Origin: a virus
Reading direction: 5' to 3' (one strand)
Virus genome (UHGV): UHGV-1727645
Length of the DNA stretch: 15,117 nt
The notes under the pieces are model-generated. The model was given only the letters and a program-made list of their open reading frames with translations, did no database searches and was not told the origin of the DNA. Each line of letters begins with the position of its first letter. The stretch's first letter is position 1. Shown in pieces: positions 1 through 15,069 of the stretch. The translations under genes and the position numbers were made by a program.

Positions 1-1260
1 CGTTCTTCCGTTCCTCAGCCTGTGCAGTATCAGCAGCAGCCAAACGTAGGTTTAATGGCGCTACAGGGGCTAAGAGGCGTTGCTGAGATTAATCAGCAGG
101 CGCAAATTTCCCAGCAGCTAAAAGAATATCAGGCACGGTTGGGTAGTGCGGTAGCTAATAATGATCGTGTTGGCGTGCAGAAGTTAATGGCCCAGTATCC
201 CCAGTTTATAGCTGATTCTCAAAAACAGATGGGATTCATTGATGCTGAGCAAAATCGACAGACCGCTGACGCTGCCATGAATCTGCGTCTTGCGTCACAA
301 ACTGGAGATCCACTGACCATGCAGAAGGCCATTCAGCAGGCAAATCCAGTATTACAGCAATTTGGTCTTCCTGCTGAAGAGGTTTATCAGTCTTGGCAGA
401 ATGACCCACAGGAATTCAACAGAATCACTGACCTCATCCATCTCCATGCTGATCCAAATAGTTACTTTAGTGTTCAAGAGAAGCAGCAAGGGCAGAGCAT
501 TGCACAGCAGAACGCAGATACATCTGCATATAATGCTCAGGTTAATGCGGAACAGGGTAATCGGCGTCTCGATATGGAGCAGTTCAAAGTCCTATCCGAT
601 AACCAACTACGCACGAGAGAAATGGTTCTGAAAGCACGACTTGGACGTGCTCAAAATGATATCGAGAGAGACAAGCTCAATGCTGAACTGAGCAAGGTAC
701 AGCAGGCGAAAGTGGAGAAGATGAACGATAAAATTAATACTGTTGCAGGTAACATCGACTCCTTGAACTCTGCGCTTGAAGTGGGTCATGAACTGGCGGG
801 AATTGTAGGGAAACATCCTTCGGCCGTTACCCGCTCGCAGAACTATAACCCCCTGACGCTGGGGTTTGGATTCCTTCCTGATGTAGCAGAAGACACACGA
901 AGCCTGCGCGCCAAAGCTGATGAATACAACCTAAAGGTTATTCTGCCTAGCCTCAAAGGGACTTTTGGCTCTAACCCAACCGAAGGGGAAAGGGCTGCCC
1001 TTATGCAATCTCAAAATGGCATTAAGTCAGCAACCAGCAATGAGGCCTTTTTGCGAGAGTTGAATAAAGCGCAGGACGTAATTATTCGAATGCAGAAACG
1101 ACAGATTGCCGGGCTCGGTATTCCTGTAACCAAATCAAAGGACGAAGAAACTGATACCAAAATGCTGTTGCAGGATCCTTCACTGGTTAAGGATTATGTG
1201 ACCGCACATGGCTATCTGCCGGAAAGTTACTATCAGGCAAAACTTAAGGGATGGCAATGA
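1..1260 (+). CDS. Gln/Ala-rich protein, 5' end outside window; probable virion/ejection-type structural protein of a phage-like element (function inferred, not recognised)
   Basis: Frame is open from base 1 to TGA at 1258-1260; the first in-window start is GTG at 22 with no Shine-Dalgarno before it, so the gene probably begins upstream. Its stop overlaps the start region of the next gene (ATG at 1251/1257/1260), implying translational coupling. No catalytic motif recognised. Confidence 0.6.
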   Translation, partial: RSSVPQPVQYQQQPNVGLMALQGLRGVAEINQQAQISQQLKEYQARLGSAVANNDRVGVQKLMAQYPQFIADSQKQMGFIDAEQNRQTADAAMNLRLASQTGDPLTMQKAIQQANPVLQQFGLPAEEVYQSWQNDPQEFNRITDLIHLHADPNSYFSVQEKQQGQSIAQQNADTSAYNAQVNAEQGNRRLDMEQFKVLSDNQLRTREMVLKARLGRAQNDIERDKLNAELSKVQQAKVEKMNDKINTVAGNIDSLNSALEVGHELAGIVGKHPSAVTRSQNYNPLTLGFGFLPDVAEDTRSLRAKADEYNLKVILPSLKGTFGSNPTEGERAALMQSQNGIKSATSNEAFLRELNKAQDVIIRMQKRQIAGLGIPVTKSKDEETDTKMLLQDPSLVKDYVTAHGYLPESYYQAKLKGWQ

Positions 1261-3977
1261 TGGCACAACTGACAGAAAAACAGAAAGCCTATTCCCGTCA
1301 TCTCGATGAAAAATATGGTTTCCCATCAGGGACGATGGAAACATTAGTTGGCAATGAATCTAGTGGTAACGGAAGTGCCGAGTCACCGAAAGGAGCTAGA
1401 GGATTTGCTCAACTGATGCCCTCAGTAATGAGTGATGCTGGTTATCGTGGAACTGATCCGCGCTCACTGCCATTTGAAAAGCAAATGGATATCGCAGCAA
1501 ACCATCTCAATAAAGGAATGAAGCGATTTGGTGATATAGGTATGGCATTGGCTGGGTATAATTCTGGCTATGCTCGTATTAATGCCGTCAGAAACGGTAA
1601 ATCTACACTGCCAGATGAAACGGCTAATTACGTAAGTAAATTTGCAGATGCCGGAATAATCCCTGATGACAGTGAAATCTTGCAGTTTGCACAAACCAGT
1701 CAACATCGCAATCTTCAGCAGCCTGACTACTCAGAGCTTGATAAAGAAATCTCTCAGGTGGGAGATATTTCTGCATGGGAAGCAAAACGTCAGCAATTTA
1801 AGAACATAGAAGCAGGACTACCAACAGCCAGTTCATGGGAGCAGAAAAGAGCTCAGTTTCTCGCCGATGAAAATGCCGGGGAACCGCAGCAGCAAGTAGC
1901 CAAGTCTAACCTTAATCCTGAGATGGAATATCTTTCGCCAGGACTGAAAGCTGCGCCAGAGCAGATGGCCAGAGGGATTGCTAATATACCGTTTGATGTA
2001 ATGGACGCAGGCGTGGGGGTAGTCAATGCGGCGCAATCAGCCGGAGCATGGGCAGCTCAGAAGCTTGGTGTGGGTGATGGCACATACACGCCCATATCAC
2101 CTGTCTTTCGCCCAGTAGACCAACCTACAGATCCATACGCGCAGGCTGGTGAGCAGCTAGCACCTTACCTTATTACAGGATTAGGTGCAGGAAAGGCAGC
2201 TACCGCAGCTTCTTCAGTTGCCAACGCTCCACGTGCTGAACGTGCGGCCACAAAGGTGGCTAGTATGTTGGCAGAAAACCTGCCAGGTACATTGGTGAAC
2301 GCCCAAAAGAACGGGCAGATCAGCCCAGAAGACCTAGCAAAAGAGACAGGTATTGGCCTAGCAGGATCGCTAGGAGCACGCGCTTTAATAAAGAGCGGAC
2401 AGACAGCCAGTGACGTAATGCGAGATGTATTGCGGAGTAATACAAATCAATCAGGCCATGTGTTAGGGGCAGCAAATACTCTGGAAACCGCCAATGATGT
2501 ATCGAAAGCAGCGCGTTCTGCCGTAGGCCGAGAGCATATCGCATCGCAGGCATCAAACGTCAGAGATGATGTCGCTAAGGCGGCGAAAATCACTGGTATT
2601 AATATCAACACCCTGACGCCTGGAATGCGCTCAGGTAGTCGTGGAATTGCCCAAGCAGAAGGTGTTCTGGCATCAACTCCTGGGAATGTTCAGGATGCTC
2701 ACCTTACGGCCTTCAATGAAATATCCTCAAAGTTGAATAAGCAGTTGTCTGATTTCGGTGCTGAGTCTGGAAGCGCATCAGAAAAAAGCGCAGCAATTAA
2801 AGAGCGCATCATCGCGAGCCTCAGTGATATGAAAACAGCAGAGAATATGGCATGGGCAGAACTGCGAAGCACGATGCCACGCGAAAGGATGAAAATGAGT
2901 AATGGGATGGCTGTCGTCCAAGCAGAAAAAGCAGCCAATGTTCCACTCAGCCCGGAGATGAAACAGTTTCAGGCTGCCAACAACCAAGGTGGCGGCATAA
3001 CCTTCGACGGGATGAAGGCATGGCGTGCTAAGTTTGCTGATGCTGAACAAGCAAACACCCGGGCAGGTAAGGCCAATGCTGCCCGGATTGCCGGAGAAAT
3101 GCGCAGAGCTATCACTGATGACATGCGCATCATGGCTGAAAAAGGAAACTTCCTCACAGAATGGCAGAAAGCTAACGATCTCTCTAAAAGTTACATTATC
3201 GCCAAACAAAATGCCGAATCTGTTTTTGGTCGAGAACTCGCATCAGACGCTATGGTAAGAAAAGGTGCCGATACGCTTAAGGCATCCGCAAACACTGGAA
3301 CGGGAGCTTTTCACCGCCTTATCTCCGCGCTGCCGGAAGCAGAACGCCAACCAGCAATAGCATCTATTCTTCAGCATGTTGTGGCGCAGGGAGAGAAGGG
3401 AGGAATCGGTGAAGAGTCTGGTATCCAGTATTTTGCCAAGCTCATGACCCAGCAGAATGTAAACGCCATCAGTCGTCATGCGCCAGATCTCGGTAGAATG
3501 ATGAAAGAGTTCGGTGTACTCGCTAAAGCCAGCACCAGACCGCAGCGATACGTAGAGCGCACGGGAAGAACAACTGAGGCTCTCAAAACGCTCGATTCAG
3601 GCCTTCCAAAGATCGTCGGTGTGATTATGAACGGAGTTCAACAGTCAGGTGCGATCGCTGGAGGCTTTGGCGGTGGTGTAATTGGTTCGATTAGTGGTTT
3701 GGTTGCTGGTGGCGCACTGAGAAATACTGTGGCTAAGATTGGGGCGACAAGAAGTGGTCGATATGCGATAGAGAAAGCCGTTCAGGAAGCTACAAAAGCA
3801 GTGCGCGCAGGGGCATCACCAGCAGCGATCGCCGCAGCAGAGAAACGATTTTCGGCCAATAAAATTGCCATGAAAGCAATTCGTGATGCCGTTGGGGCTG
3901 AAGAATTCGTGAAACTGACAAGGGCCGGGATTGTAGCTACCCTCAGTGGCATGAAAGATGTTAGCGAATGGGAATAG
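1251..3977 (+). CDS. Large (908 aa) protein with N-terminal family-1 lytic transglycosylase (SLT) domain and C-terminal Gly-rich hydrophobic segment; phage internal-virion/ejection-like or tape-measure-like
   Basis: Translated N-terminus carries the three SLT signature motifs: E-S (E36-S37), G-A-x-G-F-A-Q-L-M (res 48-56) and A-G-Y-N-S-G (res 101-106), about nt 1356-1570. C-terminal segment GAIAGGFGGGVIGSISGLVAGGAL (about nt 3650-3720) looks like a glycine-zipper membrane helix. True start may be ATG 1257 or 1260 (better spacing from AAGGGA at 1246-1251). Confidence 0.8.
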   Translation: MAMMAQLTEKQKAYSRHLDEKYGFPSGTMETLVGNESSGNGSAESPKGARGFAQLMPSVMSDAGYRGTDPRSLPFEKQMDIAANHLNKGMKRFGDIGMALAGYNSGYARINAVRNGKSTLPDETANYVSKFADAGIIPDDSEILQFAQTSQHRNLQQPDYSELDKEISQVGDISAWEAKRQQFKNIEAGLPTASSWEQKRAQFLADENAGEPQQQVAKSNLNPEMEYLSPGLKAAPEQMARGIANIPFDVMDAGVGVVNAAQSAGAWAAQKLGVGDGTYTPISPVFRPVDQPTDPYAQAGEQLAPYLITGLGAGKAATAASSVANAPRAERAATKVASMLAENLPGTLVNAQKNGQISPEDLAKETGIGLAGSLGARALIKSGQTASDVMRDVLRSNTNQSGHVLGAANTLETANDVSKAARSAVGREHIASQASNVRDDVAKAAKITGININTLTPGMRSGSRGIAQAEGVLASTPGNVQDAHLTAFNEISSKLNKQLSDFGAESGSASEKSAAIKERIIASLSDMKTAENMAWAELRSTMPRERMKMSNGMAVVQAEKAANVPLSPEMKQFQAANNQGGGITFDGMKAWRAKFADAEQANTRAGKANAARIAGEMRRAITDDMRIMAEKGNFLTEWQKANDLSKSYIIAKQNAESVFGRELASDAMVRKGADTLKASANTGTGAFHRLISALPEAERQPAIASILQHVVAQGEKGGIGEESGIQYFAKLMTQQNVNAISRHAPDLGRMMKEFGVLAKASTRPQRYVERTGRTTEALKTLDSGLPKIVGVIMNGVQQSGAIAGGFGGGVIGSISGLVAGGALRNTVAKIGATRSGRYAIEKAVQEATKAVRAGASPAAIAAAEKRFSANKIAMKAIRDAVGAEEFVKLTRAGIVATLSGMKDVSEWE

Positions 3978-4127
3978 ACGCTCTAACTAACAAAACCATA
4001 ATAGCCAAGGACGGCATACTGATATTGAGCCAACTATAAAAATTCCATATCACATTACGAGCCTGTGGCTTACATTCGCTTACAGTGATGATAATTTATA
4101 ACCACGCAATTCTTAGGTGAGATTATC

Positions 4128-4826
4128 ATGATTAAAAATCTTCTTTTAATATTATCCCTGTCATTATTGGCTGGATGCGTACAAAAACCGTTAGTAACGG
4201 TCAATGCTTTATCCTCCGGGCAATCTGTCGGCAAGAAGTTCTTGATCATCCCCGCAAGCCAAGAACTTTGGAACACCAAACAGATTGAATACACTCAAAT
4301 AGCTACGGTAGTAGCCGCCAGTTTATCAAGCCAAGGATATACACAAGTTAAAGATGAAAAATTGGCTGACCAGGTAATTCTCTTGAACTTTTTGAGAAGC
4401 GGGGCCATTTCAAATACTCGTAATGTAACCATCCCAATATACGGGCAAACTGGTGTGAGCTCAGCAACAACGTACGGAAACTCGAACACCACGTTCAATA
4501 GTTATGGTGGTGGCTACGGTACAGCTAATACCACTGGAACGGCAACAACAGTTTATACGCCTACTTATGGAATTACTGGCGCGTATAACACAACTGTGAC
4601 GGACACGTTCTACGGCGCAGGGGTGATACTCCAGTCGTTTGATGCCAAGGCTTATCTCAATAATAGGCAGATTAATATGTTATGGAAAGTTGGTAGCTCA
4701 GTCGTCTCGCAACAGTCTGATGGAATTGCTGATTACAAAGGTTTGGCGAGAATAGCCGCTAGCTATGCCGGGAAAAATACAGAAGGTGATATAACTTTTA
4801 ATGTTGACCCTAAAGCACCAAATTAA
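4128..4826 (+). CDS. Lipoprotein (lipobox L-A-G-C, Cys17) with Thr/Gly/Tyr/Asn-rich low-complexity region
   Basis: SD GGTGAG 7 nt upstream of ATG 4128; N-terminus MIKNLLLILSLSLLAGC is a classical signal peptidase II signal with lipobox; residue after Cys is Val (not Asp), suggesting outer-membrane sorting. Residues ~110-165 are low complexity (TTYGNSNTTFNSYGGGYGTANTTGTATT...). Confidence 0.7.
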   Translation: MIKNLLLILSLSLLAGCVQKPLVTVNALSSGQSVGKKFLIIPASQELWNTKQIEYTQIATVVAASLSSQGYTQVKDEKLADQVILLNFLRSGAISNTRNVTIPIYGQTGVSSATTYGNSNTTFNSYGGGYGTANTTGTATTVYTPTYGITGAYNTTVTDTFYGAGVILQSFDAKAYLNNRQINMLWKVGSSVVSQQSDGIADYKGLARIAASYAGKNTEGDITFNVDPKAPN

Positions 4827-4833
4827 CTAATAA

Positions 4834-4849
4834 GCCCGGTACGCCGGGC
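4834..4849 (+). terminator. GC-rich hairpin (GCCCGG-TACG-CCGGGC) 8 nt after lipoprotein stop; putative terminator
   Basis: 6-bp perfect GC stem with 4-nt loop directly downstream of TAA 4824-4826; no strong U-tract follows, so confidence is limited. Confidence 0.4.
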
Positions 4850-5046
4850 ATTCATGCCCCTATTATTCATGAATCGCTTTTTCTGGAAGGTATGCGACAA
4901 ACGTTAAGTGACATTGCCTACACATTCGGGGCGGGATTTCAAATCCGCTCCCAGTTGATGGGGCCGTTACAGTACGCGCATATCCGCTTTATGTGAAACA
5001 GGAAGATTTTTCTGATATCACTGCCACAGCAAAACACCAATTTTGA

Positions 5047-5062
5047 GACAAGTACGCGCGCG
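5047..5062 (+). repeat. Copy A of 3-copy repeat, core GACAAGTACGCGCGCG
   Basis: Exact 16-nt core shared with 5335-5350 and 7089-7104; this copy has an imperfect palindrome (TACGCGCGCGAG). Confidence 0.7.
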
Positions 5063-5072
5063 AGGGGTATCA

Positions 5073-5092
5073 GTTGCAAAAAATTTTGCAAC
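5073..5092. repeat. Near-perfect palindrome GTTGCAAAAAATTTTGCAAC
   Basis: Inverted repeat GTTGCAAAA / TTTTGCAAC read directly; 10 nt downstream of repeat copy A. Confidence 0.5.
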
Positions 5093-5311
5093 TACGTCCG
5101 ACCAGTATGCACACGATGGCGGGGGGGATACCATAAAACTGTTCTCTACATGAGACAGAGTGGTGGTGATGTGTTGATTATCGGCGTATATGCGCACAGG
5201 ACGCGCTATGACGATGTTTTATGCGGGTACACCAATCACATGTATCTGGTGTGATAAATCGCGTTACATGACCTCTCATGTTGTGCTGGTGGTTATCACG
5301 ACGTTCTGAAT

Positions 5312-5370
5312 CTGGCCTTTGCCTGGTATTTTGCGACAAGTACGCGCGCGTAGCATCGAAATAATCGGAT
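5312..5370 (+). repeat. Copy B of 3-copy repeat (about 55 bp, CTGGC..TGGTATTT.G.GACAAGTACGCGCGCG-TAGCA), palindromic core TACGCGCGCGTA at 5341-5352
   Basis: Aligns over about 55 bp with copy C (7063-7120) at roughly 80 percent identity by eye; core is a perfect 12-bp alternating-CG palindrome. Confidence 0.7.
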
Positions 5371-5611
5371 GGCGTATGCTGCTGGTAATATGAAGACCGA
5401 TAGCATTAACCGTAAGGAGAAAGACTTCTCGATAACGGCAAGGGGGCTGAATTGCGAGGCGAGATTAAGCAACTGTCTTGAACGTAAAAATCATGGAGCA
5501 ACATGATGGTACGATTCATTCCATTCTTCGTTCTTTCTGAGCATTGCGTTCAGGCTTAGTCAAAATTAGTGTTGCGAGCGGACCTATTAGTAATTGTTAG
5601 TGCGATGCGCC

Positions 5612-5641
5612 TGTTATGGATTGTTATGGATTGTTATGGTT
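5612..5641 (+). repeat. Tandem decamer array: TGTTATGGAT x2 + TGTTATGGTT
   Basis: Three head-to-tail 10-bp units read directly from sequence; about 260 bp beyond the AlpA-like gene 3' end. Confidence 0.7.
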
Positions 5642-5897
5642 GTGGCAGGCCTGATTAATATCCAGTATGACCACCAGCTATGAGAGGCCACCTCAGTGGT
5701 TCGCAGTTGCAGGTTTGCACTCAGGTTCGCAGGGTTTTGGCTACTTTCACGTGCGAACCTGCAGAATTGCAAAGGACAACTAAGTCTTCTGGCCAACTCC
5801 CGGTTTATGAGCGACACAGTCCGCCTGGCGCATCGTTTTCGTCGAGTGCGCCCATCAGCTTGTCCATGGACTATCCACCACTCGATATTAAAGCTAA

Positions 5898-6083
5898 TCA
5901 TTGGTTGCCAGCCCGCGAATCAAGTTTGTTCTGGATCCAAGCTTCAACCTCCTCAAGCGACCATCTAGCTGATCTACCAATTTTAACTGGCTGTGGAAAC
6001 GTGCCCGTCTTAACCCATGAGTAGATTGCCGTTTTCTTGAAGCCCGTTCTGAGCATGACTTCGCTTAATTTGATAAGGCGCAT
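5898..6083 (-). CDS. alpA: AlpA-family phage/integrative-element transcriptional regulator (excisionase-like HTH), 61 aa
   Basis: Translated product MRLIKLSEVMLRTGFKKTAIYSWVKTGTFPQPVKIGRSARWSLEEVEAWI matches the AlpA (Phage_AlpA) pattern: HTH, G-x-FP-x-P-x-K-I-G, R-W-x-x-x-E-V-x-x-W. Strong SD AGGAG 5 nt upstream of ATG on the minus strand. Confidence 0.85.
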   Translation of the reverse strand: MRLIKLSEVMLRTGFKKTAIYSWVKTGTFPQPVKIGRSARWSLEEVEAWIQNKLDSRAGNQ

Positions 6084-6132
6084 AGAGGCTCCTCTGCTTT
6101 AGATTAAGCATAGTGACAATCTGGCTTTGGGT

Positions 6133-6167
6133 GGTATCCAAAAGCGAGGTATCCATGTTGGTATCCA
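6133..6167. promoter_or_regulatory. Three direct repeats of GGTATCCA (6133, 6148, 6160) in the alpA / small-protein divergent intergenic region; candidate operator
   Basis: Exact 8-mers at 15- and 12-bp spacing, 50-85 bp upstream of the alpA start codon. Confidence 0.45.
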
Positions 6168-6304
6168 CCAAAACGCTGTTTACCAAAAAAGTTACCACCG
6201 GAACAGGACATTTTGAGCTGTAACTTAACACATAGCATATGGAGTTCACGCATAGACTTCACGCACAACGGCTCTGGCCAGTGAAGAATCACCCTGGCTA
6301 GCAA

Positions 6305-6310
6305 TATAAT
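6305..6310 (+). promoter_or_regulatory. Consensus -10 hexamer TATAAT upstream of small-protein gene 6336..6527
   Basis: Perfect TATAAT 26 bp upstream of ATG 6336, leaving a leader that contains the SD AGAGGGG; -35 region is weak (TGAAGA). Confidence 0.3.
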
Positions 6311-6335
6311 GCCGATCACCATCAGAGGGGAATCC

Positions 6336-6527
6336 ATGACACCACGAGAAATCGAGCTGCTGACCATTGCCAAGCTGGAGCATGGCGGCCACCAGCTCAG
6401 CCCGGCAGAACTGCGGGAATTAAGGCGCCAGCTGGCAGAGGGCCCTGTAATAGCCAGGCGGTACCGCGAAATGATGACCAGCCCCGCATATCGCTGGAGC
6501 AAACCAGCGCCGCTCCGTGCGCGGTGA
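6336..6527 (+). CDS. Small conserved protein (63 aa), paralog of 7338..7523; possibly Icd-like (tentative)
   Basis: Start chosen at ATG 6336 (SD AGAGGGG 5 nt upstream) rather than ORF-track ATG 6309 because the paralog starts with the same MTPREI..LLTIAKLEHGGHQL sequence. The Icd-like label is from memory of annotations of similar small genes next to alpA/perC, not verified. Confidence 0.65.
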   Translation: MTPREIELLTIAKLEHGGHQLSPAELRELRRQLAEGPVIARRYREMMTSPAYRWSKPAPLRAR

Positions 6528-6600
6528 GCAGCACCTAACCAGCACTAGACAAGCCCTGTGCTGGTGGATGTCCCTCATAATTAGCGGTTTTTAAACGGCG

Positions 6601-6723
6601 TGTTGGTTCACGGCCTCTTTTTGTTGGTTCAAAAATGGGGTGTGTTGGTTCACTTTTTGCGAATAATTCTTTTAAAAACAATACTCTTTACAAATTGAAC
6701 CAACTGAACCAACTGAACCAACA
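6601..6723. repeat. Iteron-like array: TGTTGGTTCA x3 direct at 21-bp phasing (6601, 6622, 6643) plus three tandem inverted copies TGAACCAAC (6696-6723)
   Basis: Read directly; the inverted units are the exact reverse complement of the direct units; array sits immediately upstream of the PerC-like gene. Confidence 0.75.
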
Positions 6724-6758
6724 CCTTTTTGCTTATCTATATAATCTGAGAGGCAGAA

Positions 6759-7040
6759 ATGATAAGGGACAGGAAAGCTGAAGAGCTGGAGTCAAAAGGG
6801 CTATACCGGAGAGCTGCCGCACGATGGATGGAAGTCATGCTGTTATGCACCGAGGACGATGATCGGGAATGGATAAAGCGCCGCCGTGAAACGTGTCTGG
6901 AGAACGTGAAGCGCCCGCCCGTGAAGGTTGAGGAATTTGGCGACCTGCATAAAGCTGTTACCGAAACGCAACACCGCATGGGGATAGCGCAACCGAACGG
7001 TAACGCCTTCCGGTTAAATGGCGGCAAGAGGCAAAGGTAG
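6759..7040 (+). CDS. PerC-family transcriptional regulator (93 aa)
   Basis: N-terminus MIRDRKAEELESKGLYRRAAARWMEVM resembles the PerC/Pch family as I remember it; SD GAGAGG 5 nt upstream of ATG 6759. Family call from memory. Confidence 0.6.
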   Translation: MIRDRKAEELESKGLYRRAAARWMEVMLLCTEDDDREWIKRRRETCLENVKRPPVKVEEFGDLHKAVTETQHRMGIAQPNGNAFRLNGGKRQR

Positions 7041-7044
7041 ACCA

Positions 7045-7066
7045 CCAGAGGGAAATCATCCTCTGG
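7045..7066 (+). terminator. Hairpin CCAGAGG-(8 nt)-CCTCTGG 4 nt after PerC-like stop
   Basis: 7-bp perfect stem, followed by a moderately T-containing stretch that merges into repeat copy C. Confidence 0.4.
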
Positions 7067-7120
7067 CTGGCGGTTTCTGGTATTTCGGGACAAGTACGCG
7101 CGCGCGTAGCACCCAATCGG
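7063..7120 (+). repeat. Copy C of 3-copy repeat, palindromic core TACGCGCGCGCGTA at 7095-7108
   Basis: Same orientation as copies A and B; lies immediately after the hairpin that follows the PerC-like gene; 14-bp perfect palindrome. Confidence 0.7.
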
Positions 7121-7337
7121 TGAGGAAATAGCGGCGACCTGAATGGTCAAAATCACAACGCAGCTATCCCCGTAAGCAGCGCTTAACGGAATAGCAGTAA
7201 CCTGAATCCAGTGGGGAGGGGGTAGTCAAATCTCTACAGCCCTGACTATCCGGGACTGCCCGCCCCATCGTTTTTTTATACCCGCGAAAAATGAAATTTA
7301 ATCCGGGCGTGTTTCATCCTTCCAGAGGGTATGACGT

Positions 7338-7523
7338 ATGACACCACGCGAAATAGCCTTATTGACCATCGCCAAACTTGAGCACGGAGGCCACCAGCTT
7401 ACACAGGCAGATCAACGGGAGATAGAACGATCAGTTAATGCCGATATAGCCCGGCGCGACAGGTTCCGCGAAATGATGCGAGCACCTGCCTACCAGTGGA
7501 AGAAGCCAGCGCCGCGCAGGTAG
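7338..7523 (+). CDS. Small conserved protein (61 aa), paralog of 6336..6527; possibly Icd-like (tentative)
   Basis: About 65 percent identical by eye to the 6336 product; SD GAGGG upstream of the ATG. Confidence 0.65.
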   Translation: MTPREIALLTIAKLEHGGHQLTQADQREIERSVNADIARRDRFREMMRAPAYQWKKPAPRR

Positions 7524-7643
7524 ATATGGGATTATTCCACATGTAACTTATGCGTATTAAGCAAATTTCCTTTATTCACCTTTACAGAATTGTGAGTACG
7601 TCAGTATCGTTATCCTTCCGATTCGCATTTATTCAGGATTTGC

Positions 7644-8186
7644 ATGTACCAGCTAAAGATAACCATCCGAGACAGCAAACCACCTATATGGCGGCGTGTG
7701 CTGGTTCCAGAGCAAATCCCCTTTAGTAAACTTCATGCCGTGATCCAGTTAGCTTTTGGCTGGAATGACGAACACCTGTATATGTTCGAGAAAGGGCGTA
7801 AAGGTGATCCAGGTAGCGAGTATCGCGTATGGGGTGAGGATGAAAGCATGGGTAACGCGGCAATCACGCCACTATGGGCGGCGCTCCAGAATGAGGGTGA
7901 CAAGCTGGTTTACACGTATGACTTTGGCGACTGGTGGGATTGCGTCATTGTGCTGGAGAAGCAAACACACGATACGAGTAATCAGCCCATTAGCTGCCTG
8001 CGTGGGAAAGGCACCACCCCGGCGGAAAACTCAGGCGGCTTGCATGGTTACAATGAATTGCTATTACAGGCCAGAGAGTCTGATAATCCTGAGCAGGCCG
8101 AGATCCACAATTTCCTGATGCTGGATATTGAACGCCGGGTTTACGACCTGAGCCGCATCAACGACAGATTGCAGGCTATTAACTGA
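7644..8186 (+). CDS. pRiA4b ORF3-family protein (PF07929-like), 180 aa
   Basis: N-terminus YQLKITIRDSKPPIWRRVLVPEQIPFSKLHAVIQLAFGWNDEHLYMF and later YDFGDWWD match the characteristic pRiA4b ORF-3 motifs (Y-x-L-K, P-P-I-W-R-R, L-H-x-x-I-Q-x-A-x-G-W, H-L-x-x-F, YDFGD-W). SD CAGGA 5 nt upstream. Confidence 0.8.
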   Translation: MYQLKITIRDSKPPIWRRVLVPEQIPFSKLHAVIQLAFGWNDEHLYMFEKGRKGDPGSEYRVWGEDESMGNAAITPLWAALQNEGDKLVYTYDFGDWWDCVIVLEKQTHDTSNQPISCLRGKGTTPAENSGGLHGYNELLLQARESDNPEQAEIHNFLMLDIERRVYDLSRINDRLQAIN

Positions 8187-8538
8187 CCCGCATGTATTCA
8201 CCTGATATTGCGTTGTCAGCGCCGCCAGTATCGCGCATAACAGCGCACTGACCGGGTAAACCGTAGCGCACGACCGTTGCGTTAGTATCACCGCCACGCT
8301 TTACCTGCCGCGATTCATACACTGTCACCCGCTCAAGCAGTCCACCAGCAACCATGCTTTCCAGTGTGCGCCGGGTTGATTCGAGCTGGTGACGCTTATC
8401 GAACGACACCATGCCATGAAGCAGGTAGGCCACACCCGACACATCGAACGGCGGCGCACCAATCTCACCAGTCACCCATTCGAGGTTATCCGGTTCAAAG
8501 TAGCTAAGTATCTCTTTTTTGCGACTGGTCATTCTCAT
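8179..8538 (-). CDS. Hypothetical protein (119 aa), convergent with and overlapping the pRiA4b ORF3 gene by 8 bp
   Basis: Uninterrupted ORF with plausible composition and SD-like AAGGAA upstream; no motif recognised. Confidence 0.55.
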   Translation of the reverse strand: MRMTSRKKEILSYFEPDNLEWVTGEIGAPPFDVSGVAYLLHGMVSFDKRHQLESTRRTLESMVAGGLLERVTVYESRQVKRGGDTNATVVRYGLPGQCAVMRDTGGADNAISGEYMRVS

Positions 8539-9065
8539 GGCTGGCTGATTCCTTATTGTGGGATAGCACTATCATACAATAAGTGGGTTAAAGGGAGAGC
8601 GTTACCGCCTGATATGCTGTATGAATAACAACCAAATTTCAGGTGCGGAAAAAGATATGGGGGTACTTTTGGGGGTATCTATAAAAAATGAACAATAAAA
8701 AAGGCAACAAAAACAAAGCTTATCGCCTATGTGTATTGTTCCTATTATCGCACCATTTAAATCAATAAGTTAGATAAGTGTGTGCCTAGATTTTCTTGCA
8801 GTTTGTCATTTGGGTACACACAGGGGACACAAAGCACAAAAGTGTGTACATTTGGTTTTGGTGTCCTCGTGTTTACTTCTTACCGTTGATATAAATTCAC
8901 TTTCTTGTTGACAAAAATTGTAAGCATGTCGAATGGCAATGTAGACATCGCTATTAGTTGTTTGGTAAGGTATTTATTGAGTGTAAACATAAAAACTTTA
9001 TCAATATATGCTCAGACTGATGAGGTCAGTATTGATACTGATGTTTTCAAATTTTAGGCCATAAA

Positions 9066-9662
9066 ATGGCTGTCATTCCAATGTCTTACTCCCCTGCTAC
9101 TGTAGCTCGTCGTTTTTCGATACTGGATGGAGTAACTATTCAGGGTGTACTTTACCAGATCATCTGGGATCCAAAGACTCCGTTCGCTGCGGTAATCGAA
9201 GCTGCACCTTCTGTTATTGATGGTGATATTCGCCATAAGGTTGTTGCCACTCTGGAGCTTCAGCGTCGTTCACAGCTTGAAGGGGTGTTTGTCCGGAAAT
9301 TCTGGGAAGAACAGGACGTTGCTCAGATTGAAGGGATTGTTGTCGATGGTGCTGTACGTGATGTTAGCCTTGCTACGTTTGTTTATGAAACAATAGCCAC
9401 AAAAGCAGGCGTTATACTATTAAGTGATAACGAGCAATATGAAGGAGGTAAAGCCCTCTGGCAGCATATAGCGCGTCGTTCAACGAATCTTAAGGTGTTT
9501 ATCTTAGATACAGATTCCGCACGGTATTATCCGTTTGATGGTGATCGGATCTGCTATGATGGGGAAAGTATTCCTGAATCAGAAATCTGGAGTGAACATC
9601 CTGATCGAAACAAACACGGTGTTGTTCTTGTGGCCGAATCTGTTAATGGAAAAGCCGCATAA
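9066..9662 (+). CDS. Hypothetical protein (198 aa), function unknown
   Basis: Longest ORF in this interval, preceded by a 527-bp AT-rich intergenic region; weak SD; no motif recognised. Confidence 0.55.
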   Translation: MAVIPMSYSPATVARRFSILDGVTIQGVLYQIIWDPKTPFAAVIEAAPSVIDGDIRHKVVATLELQRRSQLEGVFVRKFWEEQDVAQIEGIVVDGAVRDVSLATFVYETIATKAGVILLSDNEQYEGGKALWQHIARRSTNLKVFILDTDSARYYPFDGDRICYDGESIPESEIWSEHPDRNKHGVVLVAESVNGKAA

Positions 9663-9721
9663 TTTGCCAGCCGCATCGTGTTCTTGGAACTCTGACAGAC
9701 CTGAGAGTTGGCAGAATAAAC

Positions 9722-9747
9722 AGGGGATAACAGAACGGTTATCCCCT
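9722..9747. terminator. Perfect 10-bp stem hairpin (AGGGGATAAC-agaacg-GTTATCCCCT) between convergent genes; likely bidirectional terminator
   Basis: Lies between the stop of the 198-aa gene (9662) and the stop of the minus-strand gene (9755); on the minus strand it is followed by GTTTATTCTG. Confidence 0.55.
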
Positions 9748-9754
9748 CAGTACT

Positions 9755-10807
9755 CTACTGCTCGATCAAACATTTGCTCCATAAAGGTTGGATCGCATGT
9801 CGATCTTTGCTGTAGGGGAATCTTTTATTTTTTTTCTTCTGTTCCATCAGTAATGTGTCGATTTCGTTGTTGACAATGCGCGTCACAGCGTGACGATAAC
9901 GGTTTAGCGATGTATCACTGATATCCTGAGGCAGGCATAAACTGGTATCGGTTTTGATGCGTTCATTTATGCCATCTTTAACTTTCCATTTCAGACCATC
10001 CGGAACCCCTTCCTGCAAATCATAGGCTTTCAGTCCCGCAAGTCGTACAACAACGTCAATCTTCTCTGTTCGTATTTTTTTATTACTTACCAACAAAACT
10101 TTATTAGTTTCATACCATTTTTCAAATGATTCCAGCCGTTTTACTGCATTTATGATGTTATTCCGAATTCCAGAAAATTCAATAGAATCTGTGTGTTTCA
10201 TTTTCTTTTCTTCAGCATTAGGGGCTATTCCTGGATAGTCAATATCATGCTTTACTGACTCCAGATATGCATATTGCAGGCAGCCTGAAAGATGAATTGC
10301 GGCATCCTGCAGAGTATTAGTGCGAATCAATCTAAGGAGTTCATCTCGTTGTATGGTTATCTGACAATAATCCCTTTCCCATGCGGTCGTATTCTCGGTT
10401 TTTTCATCTTTATCCGGAGTAACTGTTGCGAATTTCCATGTGTACTGGATGAAATCTGTTGGTTTAAAATACGCCATGCTTGTTTTTACCCAACCACAGA
10501 TTTCAGCTGCATAAATATGGACATAAATATTGTACATTGTCTGTATTTCACGCTGACTGGCGACTGAAAACATATTTTTTACGAATTCTGTACATCCGAT
10601 TATCGATAGTCGTTCTCTCAGTCTGTGCACATCTTCAGTATCTGACTTCCTGCAGTCCCAGGGCCATTTGTTCTTATTCTCAAAACAGGAAAGCCATTCT
10701 GGAATATTTTGCTTATTCTGGTAGAATTCGTTAACCGCCAGACCAATGGTTATGGCAAGTATTGTTGATTCATCTATTTCATGATACTGCTTCAGGTGTG
10801 CCAGCAA
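9755..10807 (-). CDS. Hypothetical Lys/Asn/Ile-rich protein; C-terminal 350 codons of a ~543-codon reading frame interrupted by one in-frame TAA (probable pseudogene or base-call error)
   Basis: ORF-track start is TTG 10807 with no SD; the frame is open upstream through 10808-11002 (65 codons, no stop, no start codon) to the TAA at 11003-11005 that ends the 127-aa ORF, which is in the same frame. Confidence 0.6.
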   Translation of the reverse strand: MLAHLKQYHEIDESTILAITIGLAVNEFYQNKQNIPEWLSCFENKNKWPWDCRKSDTEDVHRLRERLSIIGCTEFVKNMFSVASQREIQTMYNIYVHIYAAEICGWVKTSMAYFKPTDFIQYTWKFATVTPDKDEKTENTTAWERDYCQITIQRDELLRLIRTNTLQDAAIHLSGCLQYAYLESVKHDIDYPGIAPNAEEKKMKHTDSIEFSGIRNNIINAVKRLESFEKWYETNKVLLVSNKKIRTEKIDVVVRLAGLKAYDLQEGVPDGLKWKVKDGINERIKTDTSLCLPQDISDTSLNRYRHAVTRIVNNEIDTLLMEQKKKNKRFPYSKDRHAIQPLWSKCLIEQ

Positions 10808-11002
10808 CTCTGAGGTGCAGGAGTGCGCAACAGACAGATCCTGATGGCAATACCCCTGCCGGGCTTCTGCTGGAATTGGTGAACTCCAAGCTTTACATTC
10901 AGTCAGAATATTAAATAAATCATCTCCTACAAACTTTGCCAGTTCAGGTGTTTTCCAGGTTCTCGGTCCTGGGCTGATAAAGGTTGATGTTGTCTGTACC
11001 TC

Positions 11003-11386
11003 TTACATCGCCCCCCAGGTTTTCAGACTGATATTTCCTTCATCAAAACCATTGTATAAATGGCACATCACATTAAGCGCATCTGTAAGAGCAGAAGGAG
11101 TGGGTTGGGGGGAGGTAGACTCTTCAATAGTAAGCTTTGGTTCTTCAGCGCTTCTTTGTTCTCTAAAGATTCTCAGGAGCTCTGTATTGGCACGTAATGC
11201 AGAGAGTACTCTGTGCTGTTCTTCAAACCAGGGGCGATATTCTGGATCCTGATATAGTTGACGTGCTTTAAAAATGAGCAAAAGGATTTGTTCGGAAACC
11301 GCCTCGTATATGCCAGGGAAAGGGTGGAGTTCGCCGGATAAAACACGATCATACTGATACTTTTGTTGCATTGTCCGAGTTACCAT
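11003..11386 (-). CDS. N-terminal 127 codons of the same interrupted ~543-codon reading frame; function unknown
   Basis: Ends at TAA (plus 11003-11005), in frame with the downstream 350-codon ORF; upstream is a 690-bp AT-rich divergent intergenic region. Confidence 0.55.
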   Translation of the reverse strand: MVTRTMQQKYQYDRVLSGELHPFPGIYEAVSEQILLLIFKARQLYQDPEYRPWFEEQHRVLSALRANTELLRIFREQRSAEEPKLTIEESTSPQPTPSALTDALNVMCHLYNGFDEGNISLKTWGAM

Positions 11387-11689
11387 GATGTCAGAAGTTT
11401 CTGCTTGCTACATATTGGTCCGCTGTCAGACAGAATCGATGTTGTCCACTGAAATGAAACGTTAATCCTGAGCCAGCCGCTGATTACGTGGATAGCTTGT
11501 GTACATTTGTTTATATCCTGAGATTTTATACATTATTTACGATAATTTTCTCCTGATTGTGATTGTCTCCGTCAGTTACCTCTGCGTCTTCTGTATAAGC
11601 GTATTTGCTTCATTTTCCGATCATTCGTAGCCTGCTTCTGTCTGTTCAGCAACAGATTGTCTTTTCCTCCGCTTGTTGTAGCTTATTTT

Positions 11690-11705
11690 TGTGATGATTA
11701 TCACA
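11690..11705. promoter_or_regulatory. Perfect CRP-type consensus TGTGA-N6-TCACA (TGTGATGATTATCACA)
   Basis: Both half-sites match the cAMP receptor protein consensus exactly, with the canonical 6-bp spacer, flanked by AT-rich DNA, in the divergent intergenic region between the interrupted gene and the second alpA-like gene. Confidence 0.45.
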
Positions 11706-12076
11706 AATTAGATGGAAATATTTCACCTTCCTGCGACTCCTCCATGCTTTGTTTGAATTTTACATGGATTTATTTATATATCCCAACCTAATTTTAGTCA
11801 ACAAAAATCGTCATAATGGATTTTTAATATTAATTTTTGTTTTTATTGGTCGCGGCTTGTTTTTATTTGGTTCTATATGTCTTTATTTTTTCTATTAAAA
11901 GCCATTTTAACATTGCAATTCAGTATTTTGACCTATAAAAATCATAGTATTACATTTTATTTGTAAGGTGTTGACTGGATGAATGATAGTGACTTTCACT
12001 CATTGTTTATCCGGGAAACTTAGTCATTTCATGCTCATGCCGGAAATAAAAAGTATTGATATATCAGGAGGGTAGT

Positions 12077-12304
12077 ATGTGGCTTCCATTAACAGATGAA
12101 CAGCGTCTGGTCATTTTGAAAGCTTATGGGATTGAATGCGACAGACTGGTACGTGAAAAGGAACGATATGAGATCACGTCAATTTCTCGTACACAAGCGT
12201 GGAAACTTGAACGGGAGGGAACATTTCCACCACGTAAGTCTATCGGAAAGAAATCTTGCGGATGGTTGTTAAGTGACCTTCTCTGCTGGATACAGACCAG
12301 ATGA
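12077..12304 (+). CDS. AlpA-family regulator with about 30-aa N-terminal extension (75 aa from ATG 12077)
   Basis: C-terminal half ITSISRTQAWKLEREGTFPPRKSIGKKSCGWLLSDLLCWI fits the AlpA HTH pattern; SD AGGAGG 5 nt before ATG 12077 (ORF-track start TTG 12056 lies upstream of the SD). Confidence 0.7.
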   Translation: MWLPLTDEQRLVILKAYGIECDRLVREKERYEITSISRTQAWKLEREGTFPPRKSIGKKSCGWLLSDLLCWIQTR

Positions 12305-12334
12305 ACTGTCTGTATTTTCAGTATATCCAGTCTG

Positions 12335-12377
12335 TATAGCAGCTATTGTTGCTATTGTAGCGGAAATAGCTGCTATA
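12335..12377. promoter_or_regulatory. Inverted repeat TATAGCAGCTATT-(17 nt)-AATAGCTGCTATA in the leader of the YfjI-like gene fragment
   Basis: 13-bp perfect arms; a weaker AGCAGC...GCTGCT counterpart is seen at the equivalent position upstream of the full copy (about 12805-12850). Confidence 0.45.
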
Positions 12378-12409
12378 ACCGAAAGTTATTACGAAAAAAG
12401 GAAATATTT

Positions 12410-12637
12410 ATGTCTTACATCAAACCGGATACTCCGCATCCAGTATATGCGCAACCATCAATGACTGGAAATGCAATAATTGAAACTCAACACAATGAAA
12501 AAGCATCTCTGGCTATGACTACAACATCATTATTAACAGCGATGTCAATTGCCTGTCAGAATCAGATTGAGGTGTGCAACCCCGGAAATTTACGTGGGCC
12601 CGTTAATATTTACACTATGGTTCTGGCTGATTCCTGA
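12410..12637 (+). pseudogene. Truncated duplicate of the 5' end of the YfjI/DUF3987-like gene (75 codons)
   Basis: Product aligns by eye with the N-terminus of the 12886 gene (NAIIETQ..LAM..TS.LTA.SIACQNQI.VC.PGNLRGPVN.Y...LADS), then hits a stop where the full copy continues (GATTCCTGAGAAAGG versus GATTCTGGTGAAAGG). Confidence 0.6.
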
Positions 12638-12885
12638 GAAAGGTAAAAGACCGGGGGGAAGGTGTTAGTGAAATAATTTTAGGAGGTGTTAAGAATGAGA
12701 AACATGAATGATATTTCGTGGTAAATAACACAGTATGAACTGAATTAACCTTATCGGTTTATTAAACATCAGATCTACAGATATTCTGTATTTCTCAGAA
12801 CATTAGGTCTGAACAGCAGCTATTTCGCTATTATAGCGGGAGTTGCTGCTACTTTACTAACCCATTAATGAAAAGAGAGGCTTTT

Positions 12886-13890: not shown

Positions 13891-14318
13891 GACATTGCCG
13901 GGAATATGCTGCTAAAAATGCAGAGTATATGGCAAGACTGGCAGGACTTATTTACCATTCGAGCGGTGAGGAGGGGGAGATTTCCCCTTACATTGCAGAA
14001 ATGGCGAGAGAATTAGCAATATGGTACGGTAATGAGTATGTGCGGTTGTCTAATCCGTTAACTTTTGACAACCCTGCCCTGACCGTACCTGTGCGACTCA
14101 TTCCAGAGGAGCTTGAACTTTTCAACTGGATAAAAAGCTATTGCATTGAGAAGGGGATCCTCTGTATGAAAAAAAATGACATTTTACAGCGTGGTCCGAA
14201 CCGTTTCCGGAAAAAGGATAAAATCAACTGGTTACTGGATTTACTGTATGAACAAAACAGAGTTGTACCGGTTATTGAGGGAAAAACGTTGTGTGTCGCA
14301 CCTAACTTTGACCTCTGA
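13878..14318 (+). CDS. C-terminal part of the same YfjI/DUF3987-like gene in the +1 frame (146 codons)
   Basis: Overlaps the upstream ORF by 13 nt; one extra G in the G6 run at 13871-13876 would fuse both ORFs into one frame of about 486 codons. Confidence 0.6.
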   Translation: MGPLRHCREYAAKNAEYMARLAGLIYHSSGEEGEISPYIAEMARELAIWYGNEYVRLSNPLTFDNPALTVPVRLIPEELELFNWIKSYCIEKGILCMKKNDILQRGPNRFRKKDKINWLLDLLYEQNRVVPVIEGKTLCVAPNFDL

Positions 14319-14342
14319 ACAACTTAATCGTTGACTAACATA

Positions 14343-14373
14343 TAGTCTCCTCTGCTACTTGCGGAGGAGACTA
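14343..14373 (+). terminator. Hairpin TAGTCTCCTC-(11 nt)-GAGGAGACTA about 25 nt after the YfjI-like stop
   Basis: 10-bp perfect stem; no clear U-tract, so the terminator assignment is tentative. Confidence 0.4.
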
Positions 14374-15043: not shown

Positions 15044-15069
15044 TATTACCTCATTGTAATGAGGTAATA
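15044..15069. repeat. 26-bp palindrome TATTACCTCATT-GT-AATGAGGTAATA
   Basis: 12-bp perfect inverted arms with 2-bp centre, read directly. Confidence 0.6.

What the first reader, a model, noticed from the sequence alone, without database searches (positions are those of the whole stretch)
6601..6723. Iteron-like array with helical phasing and a mirrored triplet, upstream of the PerC-like gene
Three copies of TGTTGGTTCA spaced exactly 21 bp apart (two helical turns) are followed about 45 bp later by three head-to-tail copies of the reverse complement TGAACCAAC(A). Phased direct repeats plus an inverted cluster are the hallmark of replication-origin iterons (P4 ori/crr carries repeated octamers bound by the alpha primase) or of a multi-site operator. 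No primase gene lies in the window, so this may be an orphaned origin or a binding array for the adjacent PerC-like or small proteins.
Basis: partly seen in the sequence, partly recalled or inferred. Interest (0 to 1): 0.55.

Follow-up and report, generated by a model that had tools for sequence, protein, structure and literature searches.

The report
Detached half of a satellite origin
The repeat array is real and is most likely one of two mirror-image binding-site modules of the replication origin of a phage satellite (the PICI EcCIMP1); here it sits 8.5 kb from the primase-helicase gene it belongs to, with cargo genes in between, an origin layout like that of phage P4.

Summary
GTTGGTTCA occurs three times at 21-bp spacing (6601-6652), then a 43-bp, 79% A+T spacer, then three head-to-tail inverted copies (6696-6722). 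Chance does not explain this.

Window 1-8750 is 99.9% identical to the published E. coli PICI EcCIMP1, whose paper never mentions an origin. In complete copies of the element, a twin array of the same 9-mer starts 26 nt after the stop codon of the TOPRIM-DUF927 primase-helicase gene, about 1.9 kb left of the window. The array in the window is an inverted copy of that twin.

Across about 60 relatives in Enterobacterales the two units are either adjacent (about 300 bp in all, right after the primase-helicase gene) or split by 0.4-10 kb of variable cargo. The iteron sequence changes between lineages together with the last ~55 residues of the primase-helicase. It does not follow the integrase, AlpA or PerC.

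The layout (opposed iteron sets around an A+T-rich centre) is the described SaPI/PICI origin plan. The two-site arrangement parallels P4 ori/crr. So the array is an initiator-binding origin unit, not a PerC operator. It looks orphaned only because the window is cut. Whether it fires, assists the proximal unit or also controls perC is untested.

The parts
6601..6652 (+). Spaced iteron set of origin unit B: three TGTTGGTTCA copies at 6601, 6622 and 6643, 21 bp apart (two helical turns)
   Evidence: In 13 loci from different genera the iteron columns have a mean majority-base frequency of 0.85, against 0.62 for the spacers between iterons.
6653..6695 (.). Central A+T-rich spacer (79% A+T, local G+C minimum), the presumed melting site. 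It contains the conserved blocks AAAAACAAT (6674-6682) and CTCTTTACAAAT (6684-6695).
   Evidence: The spacer is nearly identical to that of the twin unit A in complete elements, and its variable triplet matches between A and B in three of five split elements (alignment A1).
6696..6722 (-). Tandem iteron set of unit B: three head-to-tail TGAACCAAC copies (GTTGGTTCA on the minus strand) at 9-bp spacing
   Evidence: Majority-base frequency is 0.96 across 13 loci. An exact 27-mer scan of IMG/VR found 61 stretches.
6723..6758 (+). Right flank ACCTTTTTGCTTATCTATATAATCTGAGAGGCAGAA, with a TATAAT hexamer at 6740-6745. A TTTTGCTTATATATA-like motif follows unit B in many genera. It may be a promoter for the distal genes (inferred only).
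   Evidence: The sigma-70 consensus scan found no promoter here.
6759..7040 (+). PerC-family gene (EcCIMP1_025). It is the gene downstream of unit B in this element but is not part of the origin.
   Evidence: Pfam PerC, E = 3.7e-30. Pick et al. 2025 show that it represses LEE1.
5898..6083 (-). alpA_1 (EcCIMP1_023), the last annotated cargo gene between units A and B, on the opposite strand
   Evidence: Pfam Phage_AlpA, E = 1.9e-13; paper text.
1..6600 (+). Right-hand 6.6 kb of the cargo segment that separates unit A (outside the window) from unit B. It holds P22-type ejection-protein homologues (22-1260, 1251-3977), a 232-aa ORF, alpA_1 and a 72-aa ORF.
   Evidence: The cargo between the units differs among split loci.
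8741..8750 (+). TCCTATTATC, the att core that marks the right end of the EcCIMP1-type satellite carrying the array
   Evidence: The core sequence and the element boundaries come from Pick et al. 2025.

Best explanation
The array is the distal unit (here called unit B) of a two-unit replication origin of an EcCIMP1-type phage-inducible chromosomal island (PICI). Each 9-bp iteron would be bound by the C-terminal domain of the island's own TOPRIM-DUF927 primase-helicase. That gene ends about 1.9 kb left of the window and is followed at once by the twin unit A. Two opposed iteron sets (three phased copies and three tandem copies) would place initiator molecules on either side of a 43-bp A+T-rich stretch, which would melt so that the helicase can load itself, as described for SaPI/PICI origins. 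After the helper phage Kapi1 induces excision, unit B would act in cis on the 20-kb circle. It could be a second initiation site, or a P4 crr-like partner that loops to unit A. Shown here: the anatomy, the homology of B to A, the position of the array next to the initiator gene in relatives, conservation of the iterons over their spacers, and co-variation of the iteron with the initiator's C-terminus. Inferred: binding, melting, the role in replication, and any effect on perC transcription.
For: (1) Window 1-8772 is 99.8-99.9% identical to EcCIMP1-type elements, including strain MP1. The att core sits where the paper places the element's end. (2) In complete elements the same 9-mer forms a second cluster 26 nt after the primase-helicase stop codon. 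Unit B aligns to the reverse complement of that cluster over about 65 nt, spacer included. (3) In a 16-kb circular Klebsiella capsid-encoding satellite and about 25 other loci, both units sit side by side directly after the DUF927 gene. In 12 further loci of those calls and in 8 IMG/VR contigs they are 0.4-10.4 kb apart. In the 8 IMG/VR contigs and the two complete E. coli elements they are in mirror order. (4) Seven iteron classes share one geometry. (5) Of all windows along the protein, the last ~55 residues separate same-iteron from different-iteron pairs best (identity 0.80 against 0.55). The motif QRKSPRIxGRQ goes with GAACCAAC, and QGRVRExGRQ goes with AGACAACA in proteins otherwise mostly at least 90% identical over residues 426-815. 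(6) Integrase (26-28% identity) and AlpA (25%) differ between elements that share the iteron, while the helicase plus C-terminal region is 71% identical. (7) The helicase part matches a solved chain deposited as 'Pathogenicity island protein' (8tch, E = 1e-11). SaPI Rep proteins read iterons with a C-terminal winged helix, and their origins have opposed iterons around an A+T-rich centre (PMC9371898). Gram-negative PICI origins share this plan, and the EcCICFT073 origin was shown to work (PMC6092414). That validated origin also has 9-bp tandem pairs in inverted orientation at both ends. (8) The annotated P4 record places crr 46 nt after the alpha gene and ori about 4.5 kb away, both with the same iteron.
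Against: No experiment links this array to replication, and the EcCIMP1 paper does not address an origin. The array is not immediately 3' of the initiator gene, which is the textbook position of a PICI origin. Unit A alone already has the full plan, so B could be redundant. The AlphaFold model of the C-terminal region was too poor to confirm a winged helix (pLDDT below 50 there). O111 strains keep unit B without any primase gene, or have lost it to an IS element, so in remnants it is not maintained by function. The co-variation is partly confounded by shared ancestry. The initiator gene is not in the window, so its presence in the source genome is inferred from near-identical genomes.
Confidence: 0.8

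Rival explanations
1. The array is a multi-site transcriptional operator for perC and the distal genes. It would be read by PerC itself, by AlpA_1 or by the small flanking proteins, with no role in replication.
For: The array ends 36 nt before perC, and a TATAAT hexamer lies 17 nt after the last iteron. A TTTTGCTTATATATA-like motif follows unit B in many genera. Iteron arrays of plasmids often double as operators (general knowledge).
Against: The same unit precedes SSB genes or unrelated genes, or no PerC at all, in other elements. Compact elements lack alpA_1 and the small ORFs but keep the unit. The iteron co-varies with the primase-helicase C-terminus. An identical array follows the primase gene, where there is no promoter to control. 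The consensus scan found no sigma-70 promoter.
Confidence: 0.05
2. The array is a non-functional leftover: a duplicated or displaced origin half created when cargo was inserted, and now merely tolerated.
For: Unit A alone already shows the complete described origin plan. Orphan copies persist in O111 chromosomes without a primase gene, and one was removed by IS1203. EcCIMP1 still transfers with a kan cassette inserted between the units, so the exact spacing is not critical.
Against: The iterons are nearly invariant across genera while the inter-iteron spacers drift (0.96 and 0.85 against 0.62). The mirror unit is present in both compact and split forms and in lineages with other iteron sequences, always matching unit A. 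The variable spacer triplet is identical in A and B in three of five split elements and nearly so in the other two.
Confidence: 0.1
3. The copies are arm-type sites for the integrase or excisionase, or a DNA hairpin or cruciform signal such as a single-strand initiation or packaging site.
For: Repeated 9-10-mers in both orientations resemble att arm sites; P4 has such repeats. As single-stranded DNA the region folds better than shuffled controls (z = -3.95).
Against: The array lies 2 kb from the att core. Elements with unrelated integrases and AlpA proteins carry the same iteron. The fold is a trivial result of the inverted copies, and the unequal spacing (21 against 9 bp) leaves large internal loops. 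No Rfam family and no tRNA was found.
Confidence: 0.03

Closest known systems
SaPI/PICI replication origins (Ubeda and Novick work as summarised in Qiao et al. 2022, PMC9371898; Gram-negative PICIs in Fillol-Salom et al. 2018, PMC6092414)
   Same: Short iterons in two opposed sets flank an A+T-rich centre. The initiator is a self-loading helicase, fused to a primase as in SaPI5 PriRep5, and its C-terminal domain sets the iteron specificity. The element is a demonstrated PICI. The validated EcCICFT073 origin shows the same outer 9-bp tandem pairs in inverted orientation.
   Different: The described origins lie immediately 3' of rep. This unit lies 8.5 kb away, behind cargo genes, and is the mirror twin of a unit that does lie there. 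Iterons are 9 bp, not the 5-6 bp described for SaPIs. Function was not tested for this element.
Phage P4 ori and crr, bound by the alpha primase-helicase (annotated record NC_001609)
   Same: There are two separate cis elements with the same iteron. One follows the primase-helicase gene directly (crr, 46 nt after alpha) and the other lies kilobases away. Each unit combines a 9-bp tandem pair, an A+T-rich stretch and inverted copies. The Zn-ribbon/TOPRIM primase domain is homologous (32% identity, E = 2e-41).
   Different: The iteron sequence differs (GGTGAACA against GTTGGTTCA). The helicase and C-terminal domains are not detectably related to alpha (DUF927, SaPI-Rep-like). The P4 crr is a direct duplication of a 120-bp unit, whereas here the two units are mirror images. 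Whether both units are needed is unknown.
Iteron plasmid origins (for example pPS10, RK2, F)
   Same: Repeated initiator-binding sites sit next to an A+T-rich unwinding region, and arrays can also serve in control by handcuffing or as operators.
   Different: Plasmid iterons are 17-22 bp direct repeats next to DnaA boxes and are read by RepA-type proteins. Here the sites are 9-mers in opposed sets, the window has no DnaA box, and the initiator is a helicase.

Membership tests
SaPI/PICI-type replication origin | At least two short iterons on each side of a central A+T-rich region, with the two sides pointing in opposite directions | tested here: met
   Three plus three copies flank a 43-bp spacer that is 79% A+T. 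The definition is taken from PMC9371898 and PMC6092414.
SaPI/PICI-type replication origin | [quoted passage not shown] | tested here: not met
   In complete copies of the element this unit lies 8.5 kb downstream of the primase-helicase stop codon, and that gene is outside the window. The feature is met by the twin unit A (26 nt after the stop) and by the equivalent unit in about 25 compact loci.
SaPI/PICI-type replication origin | Iterons specific to a cognate self-loading helicase-initiator that reads them with its C-terminal domain | tested here: met
   This rests on comparative evidence only. The helicase part matches the solved chain 8tch, deposited as 'Pathogenicity island protein' (E = 1e-11). 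Seven iteron classes co-vary with the last ~55 residues. The iteron is independent of integrase and AlpA. Direct binding was not tested, and the structure model was inconclusive.
SaPI/PICI-type replication origin | Carried by an element that is induced, excised and packaged with the help of a phage | tested here: met
   Window 1-8772 is 99.8-99.9% identical to EcCIMP1-type elements, MP1 included. The att core is at 8741-8750. Induction, excision and transfer by Kapi1 were shown by Pick et al. 2025.
SaPI/PICI-type replication origin | Supports initiator-dependent autonomous replication | not testable with these tools
   This needs a pri-ori plasmid maintenance assay like the one done for EcCICFT073.
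P4 ori/crr system | Alpha-type protein that combines primase, helicase and origin binding | tested here: inconclusive
   The N-terminal 360 residues are 32% identical to P4 alpha (E = 2e-41). The helicase and C-terminus show no detectable similarity; Pfam finds DUF927 rather than a D5-type helicase.
P4 ori/crr system | Type 1 iteron TGTTCACC / GGTGAACA | tested here: not met
   The iteron here is GTTGGTTCA. The P4 repeats were read.
P4 ori/crr system | Two separated cis elements that carry the same iteron, one directly 3' of the primase-helicase gene | tested here: met
   Units A and B are present in complete elements and in 8 IMG/VR contigs. The P4 layout is shown. Unit A itself is outside the window.
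P4 ori/crr system | Both elements required in cis for replication | not testable with these tools
   This needs deletion of A and of B in EcCIMP1 or in a mini-replicon.
Operator of a PerC/AlpA-type regulator | The sites co-occur with the regulator gene across related elements | tested here: not met
   Unit B occurs without PerC, alpA_1 or the small ORFs in most relatives. AlpA is only 25% identical between elements that share the iteron.

The most novel reading that the evidence does not exclude
The origins of this satellite family are bipartite by design: two mirror-image initiator-loading units bounded by outward-facing tandem triplets. The units can be pulled up to 10 kb apart, and the space between them serves as a slot for helper-hijacking and defence cargo. 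The units would keep working together by initiator-mediated looping, as P4 ori and crr are thought to do, and would be kept alike by gene conversion. The distal unit would also place perC and the distal genes under control of the replication initiator. That would link P4 and PICI replication logic and make the interior of an origin a cargo hot spot.
Probability: 0.3. Interest if true: 0.6.

Novelty: new variant of a known kind. Interest (0 to 1): 0.42.

Why it matters
PICI origins are described as lying directly behind the rep gene, and that position is used to recognise them. In this family the origin has two mirror units. In some lineages, including the experimentally studied EcCIMP1, the second unit lies kilobases away with the satellite's accessory genes between the two.

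If both units are needed, satellite replicons must be mapped and engineered with both. The variable cargo region would then lie inside the origin, and PICIs would share the ori/crr logic of P4, whose primase domain they also share.

The work also gives a simple comparative rule that pairs the iteron with the initiator's C-terminal tail. This predicts which satellites are replication-compatible. The family is common: unit A together with the end of the primase gene is present in 365 of 5,426 complete E. coli genomes.

Tried and rejected
- Rfam and a tRNA scan found nothing in the window.
- The sigma-70 promoter and terminator scan found nothing between 5800 and 7400, so the promoter idea for the right flank stays an inference.
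- A literature search for the iteron strings returned only unrelated papers.
- A search for P4 crr literature in the held library gave no primary paper. I used the annotated P4 record instead.
- The AlphaFold2 model of the initiator's C-terminal 217 residues had mean pLDDT 60, and below 50 over the presumed DNA-binding part. I therefore ran no fold search and make no winged-helix claim for this protein.
- The whole-protein PDB sequence search matched only the helicase part.
- No DnaA box was found, which argues against a plasmid-type origin that depends on DnaA.
- Integrase arm sites were rejected on distance from att and lack of co-variation.
- A PerC or AlpA operator was rejected on distribution.
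- A hairpin signal was rejected as a trivial result of the inverted copies.
- I did not test whether the cargo segment between the inverted units is ever inverted by recombination.

Full report
**The observation**

The region was read directly and with the repeat finder.
- TGTTGGTTCA lies at 6601, 6622 and 6643 on the plus strand, exactly 21 bp apart.
- After a 43-bp spacer, TGAACCAAC (the reverse complement of the 9-bp core GTTGGTTCA) lies head to tail at 6696, 6705 and 6714.
- With one mismatch allowed, the decamer has 9 hits in the 15-kb window, six of them here. The expected number is 1.39, and none of 200 shuffles reaches 9.
- The spacer is 79% A+T against 55% for the window and holds the local G+C minimum of 0.20.
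- A PerC-family ORF starts 36 nt to the right.

The description is accurate, apart from the spacer being 43 bp rather than about 45 bp.

**Where the window comes from**

Window 1-8772 is 99.8-99.9% identical to a chromosomal element found in many E. coli genomes, including strain MP1. That element is EcCIMP1, a 19,963-bp phage-inducible chromosomal island. It is integrated at tRNA-Thr and is excised and transduced with the P22-like helper phage Kapi1 (Pick, Stadel and Raivio 2025, PMC11773190).

The att core TCCTATTATC reported in that paper is at window 8741-8750. The rest of the window (8760-15117) is a different, adjacent island with YfjI-family and DUF3987 genes.

Within the satellite part, the window holds:
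- two P22-type ejection-protein homologues and a 232-aa ORF;
- alpA_1 (EcCIMP1_023) on the minus strand at 5898-6083;
- an unannotated 72-aa ORF;
- the array;
- perC (EcCIMP1_025);
- a 61-aa paralogue of the 72-aa ORF, and a PRiA4_ORF3 gene.

The paper never mentions an origin, iterons or repeats in this region.

**The twin array**

In a complete copy of the element (strain EH09-18-41, locus L006) the 9-mer GTTGGTTCA forms two clusters and essentially nothing else.
- One cluster is the array of the finding, at L006 20602-20722.
- The other is at 12072-12182 and starts 26 nt after the stop codon of the 918-aa TOPRIM-DUF927 primase-helicase gene.

That position is about 1.9 kb left of the first base of the window. 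The proximal cluster (unit A) has three tandem copies, a spacer, then three inverted copies at 11 and 21 bp. It is the mirror image of the array in the window (unit B).

Unit A and the reverse complement of unit B align over about 65 nt, including the A+T-rich spacer (alignment A1). A 12-kb circular relative (NZ_CP148430, L004) has the same two units only 1.9 kb apart. The variable triplet inside the spacer is the same in A and B of one element but differs between elements: TAC in EH09, CGA in pZ1323, CAA in L064. This points to gene conversion or joint selection.

**Relatives**

A K. pneumoniae 16-kb circular record has int, alpA, a DUF927 gene and capsid, portal and protease genes, so it looks like a capsid-encoding satellite. 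It carries 11 exact copies of the core directly after the DUF927 stop codon, arranged as unit A followed immediately by unit B.

A scan of one genome per species with the primase-helicase returned 77 loci across Enterobacterales. In nearly all of those with sequence downstream, unit A starts 25-60 nt after the stop codon.
- In about 25 loci unit B follows directly, so the whole structure is about 300 bp.
- In 12 loci unit B lies 0.4-9 kb further on.
- An exact scan of IMG/VR with the tandem triplet found 61 stretches. 26 are compact arrays of 10-12 copies. 8 contigs carry one A-type and one B-type unit; in the four where both lie in one fetched stretch they are 7.4-10.4 kb apart and in the same mirror order.

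The genes between the units differ from locus to locus. They include tape-measure-like or ejection-like proteins, SLT-domain proteins, a Fic-like protein and others. The gene after unit B is perC in three loci, an SSB gene in at least eight, and unrelated ORFs elsewhere. One E. coli variant has unit B with no perC at all.

**Evidence that these are protein-binding sites**

Thirteen unit-B sequences from different genera were compared.

| Part of unit B | Mean majority-base frequency |
|---|---|
| Tandem iterons | 0.96 |
| Spaced iterons | 0.85 |
| Spacers between iterons | 0.62 |

The geometry is kept even where the iteron sequence is different. Tandem copies sit at 8-9 bp, spaced copies at 11 or 21 bp, and 51-55 bp (about five helical turns) lie across the centre.

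**Which protein binds**

Seven iteron classes occur: GAACCAAC, AGACAACA, ACGGGTTA, GAACCGAC, GTCGGGTA, GTGGGTTA and TGGGATAA. In every locus, A and B carry the same class.

Along the primase-helicase alignment, the last ~55 residues separate same-iteron pairs from different-iteron pairs most strongly (identity 0.80 against 0.55).
- All full-length GAACCAAC proteins in that alignment carry G[YF]QRKSPR[IV]xxRQ.
- The five AGACAACA proteins carry GYQGRVRExGRQ. They are mostly at least 90% identical to the EcCIMP1 protein over residues 426-815, yet only 68% identical at the C-terminus.
- The other classes have their own motifs.

By contrast, elements that share the GAACCAAC iteron have integrases only 26-28% identical and AlpA proteins 25% identical. 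The Klebsiella DUF927 protein even lacks the TOPRIM primase part, yet it shares the helicase and C-terminus (71% identity).

The protein has a primase-type Zn-ribbon, Toprim_3 and DUF927 domains, and about 275 C-terminal residues with no Pfam match.
- Its helicase part matches the solved chain 8tch, deposited as 'Pathogenicity island protein' (E = 1e-11), and more weakly 5dgk, 'Active helicase'.
- Its N-terminal 360 residues are 32% identical to the P4 alpha primase domain (E = 2e-41).

An AlphaFold model of the C-terminal region was too uncertain to use.

**Comparison with what is known**

SaPI origins are described as follows: 6-12 iterons immediately downstream of rep, an A+T-rich centre, at least two iterons on each side pointing in opposite directions, read by a winged helix in the Rep C-terminal domain (PMC9371898).

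[quoted passage not shown] The EcCICFT073 pri-ori segment drives plasmid replication (PMC6092414). I read that validated origin in the CFT073 genome. It uses a different iteron (TGTCTACC) and a different primase family, but it also has 9-bp tandem pairs in inverted orientation at its two outer ends, 190 nt apart.

The array in the window therefore fits the plan of this origin class, with one exception: it is not next to the initiator gene.

The separated arrangement has a precedent in P4. In the annotated record, crr lies 46 nt after the alpha gene and ori lies about 4.5 kb away. Both contain the same type 1 repeat, including a 9-bp tandem pair, an A+T-rich stretch and inverted copies. That P4 needs both elements in cis, and that alpha binds both, is from my own knowledge of the P4 literature. 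I could not retrieve the primary papers.

**Most likely mechanism**

After Kapi1 induces the island and it circularises, the primase-helicase binds the six iterons of unit B through its C-terminal domain, as it does at unit A. The phased triplet places three molecules on one face of the helix. The tandem triplet packs three more on the other side of the A+T-rich stretch in the opposite orientation. The stretch between them melts and the helicase loads.

Unit B would then either fire as a second origin or cooperate with unit A by looping, as in P4. Because its tandem triplet lies just upstream of a TATAAT hexamer and perC, initiator binding may also affect transcription of the distal genes.

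The binding partner is supported by co-variation. Melting, firing, looping and promoter control are all inferences.

**Rivals**
- A PerC, AlpA_1 or small-protein operator is contradicted by the distribution of the unit.
- A dead duplicate is contradicted by conservation across genera. It cannot be excluded for function in this particular element, since unit A alone already has the full plan.
- Orphan copies in O111 strains show that the unit can persist, or be lost, without a primase gene.
- Integrase arm sites and hairpin signals fit neither the position nor the co-variation.

**Verdict**

The iteron/origin reading is right and the P4 analogy is useful. The 'orphaned origin' and 'PerC binding array' readings are not supported.

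This is a known kind of element in a published satellite whose paper does not mention an origin. What appears to be undescribed is the two-unit mirror structure and its splitting by cargo. I found no paper that describes it in the library searched.

Noticed in passing
window 6309-6527 and 7338-7523: Two paralogous small ORFs (MTPREIxLLTIAKLEHGGHQL...), about 74% identical over the aligned DNA stretch, bracket unit B plus perC. The upstream one is not annotated in the RefSeq records inspected, and neither has a Pfam match.
   Followed up: partly
window 22-3977: The satellite carries homologues of P22-type DNA-ejection proteins (Pfam Inj_translocase and an SLT-domain 908-aa protein), although it depends on a P22-like helper. 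Other split loci carry tape-measure-like or SLT proteins in the same slot between the two origin units.
   Followed up: partly
window 6723-6745; L003, L008-L066 after unit B: A semi-conserved motif (TTTTGCTTATATATA-like) follows the tandem triplet of unit B in many genera, whatever the iteron class or the next gene. It has no counterpart beside unit A. Its function is unknown; it could be a promoter or a second unwinding element.
   Followed up: partly
L006 12072-12182 vs 20602-20722; L004, L064, L065, L039: The variable triplet in the A+T-rich spacer is identical in units A and B in three of these elements (L006, L004, L064) and differs by one base in L065 and L039, while it differs between elements. 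This suggests concerted evolution (gene conversion) between inverted copies kilobases apart.
   Followed up: partly
L008-L010, L037, L044, L050 (unit B region): A second compact origin type replaces the A+T-rich spacer of unit B with a G+C-rich segment (AAACCCAGTGNTGGCGCGG...) and has only one inward-facing iteron before it.
   Followed up: no
L005 (PQ569648.1, 94.9-106.5 kb): The record named Klebsiella phage P12620-1 (106.5 kb) ends with a segment that looks like the 16-kb K. pneumoniae satellite: a DUF927-like ORF of the same length, the iteron origin, and downstream ORFs of the same sizes and order as that satellite's capsid genes. The record may join a phage and a satellite.
   Followed up: no
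L038 (Yersinia pekkanenii) and L066: L038 shows three origin-like iteron clusters about 4.6 and 1.2 kb apart around an unusually long primase match, and a related hit is annotated as an HNH endonuclease domain protein. In L066, unit A has seven tandem copies instead of three.
   Followed up: no
window 8760-15117: A separate island lies directly after the satellite's att core, with YfjI-family, AlpA-type HTH and DUF3987 genes. No complete E. coli genome in the collection has the two parts of the window joined in this way; the best coverage of the whole window is 58%.
   Followed up: partly
L086 4001-4116 (E. coli O111:H8 99.1145): IS1203 is inserted close to the first iteron of an orphan unit B, and the rest of the array and perC are gone. 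What follows IS1203 is a segment of another satellite in the inverted orientation.
   Followed up: partly
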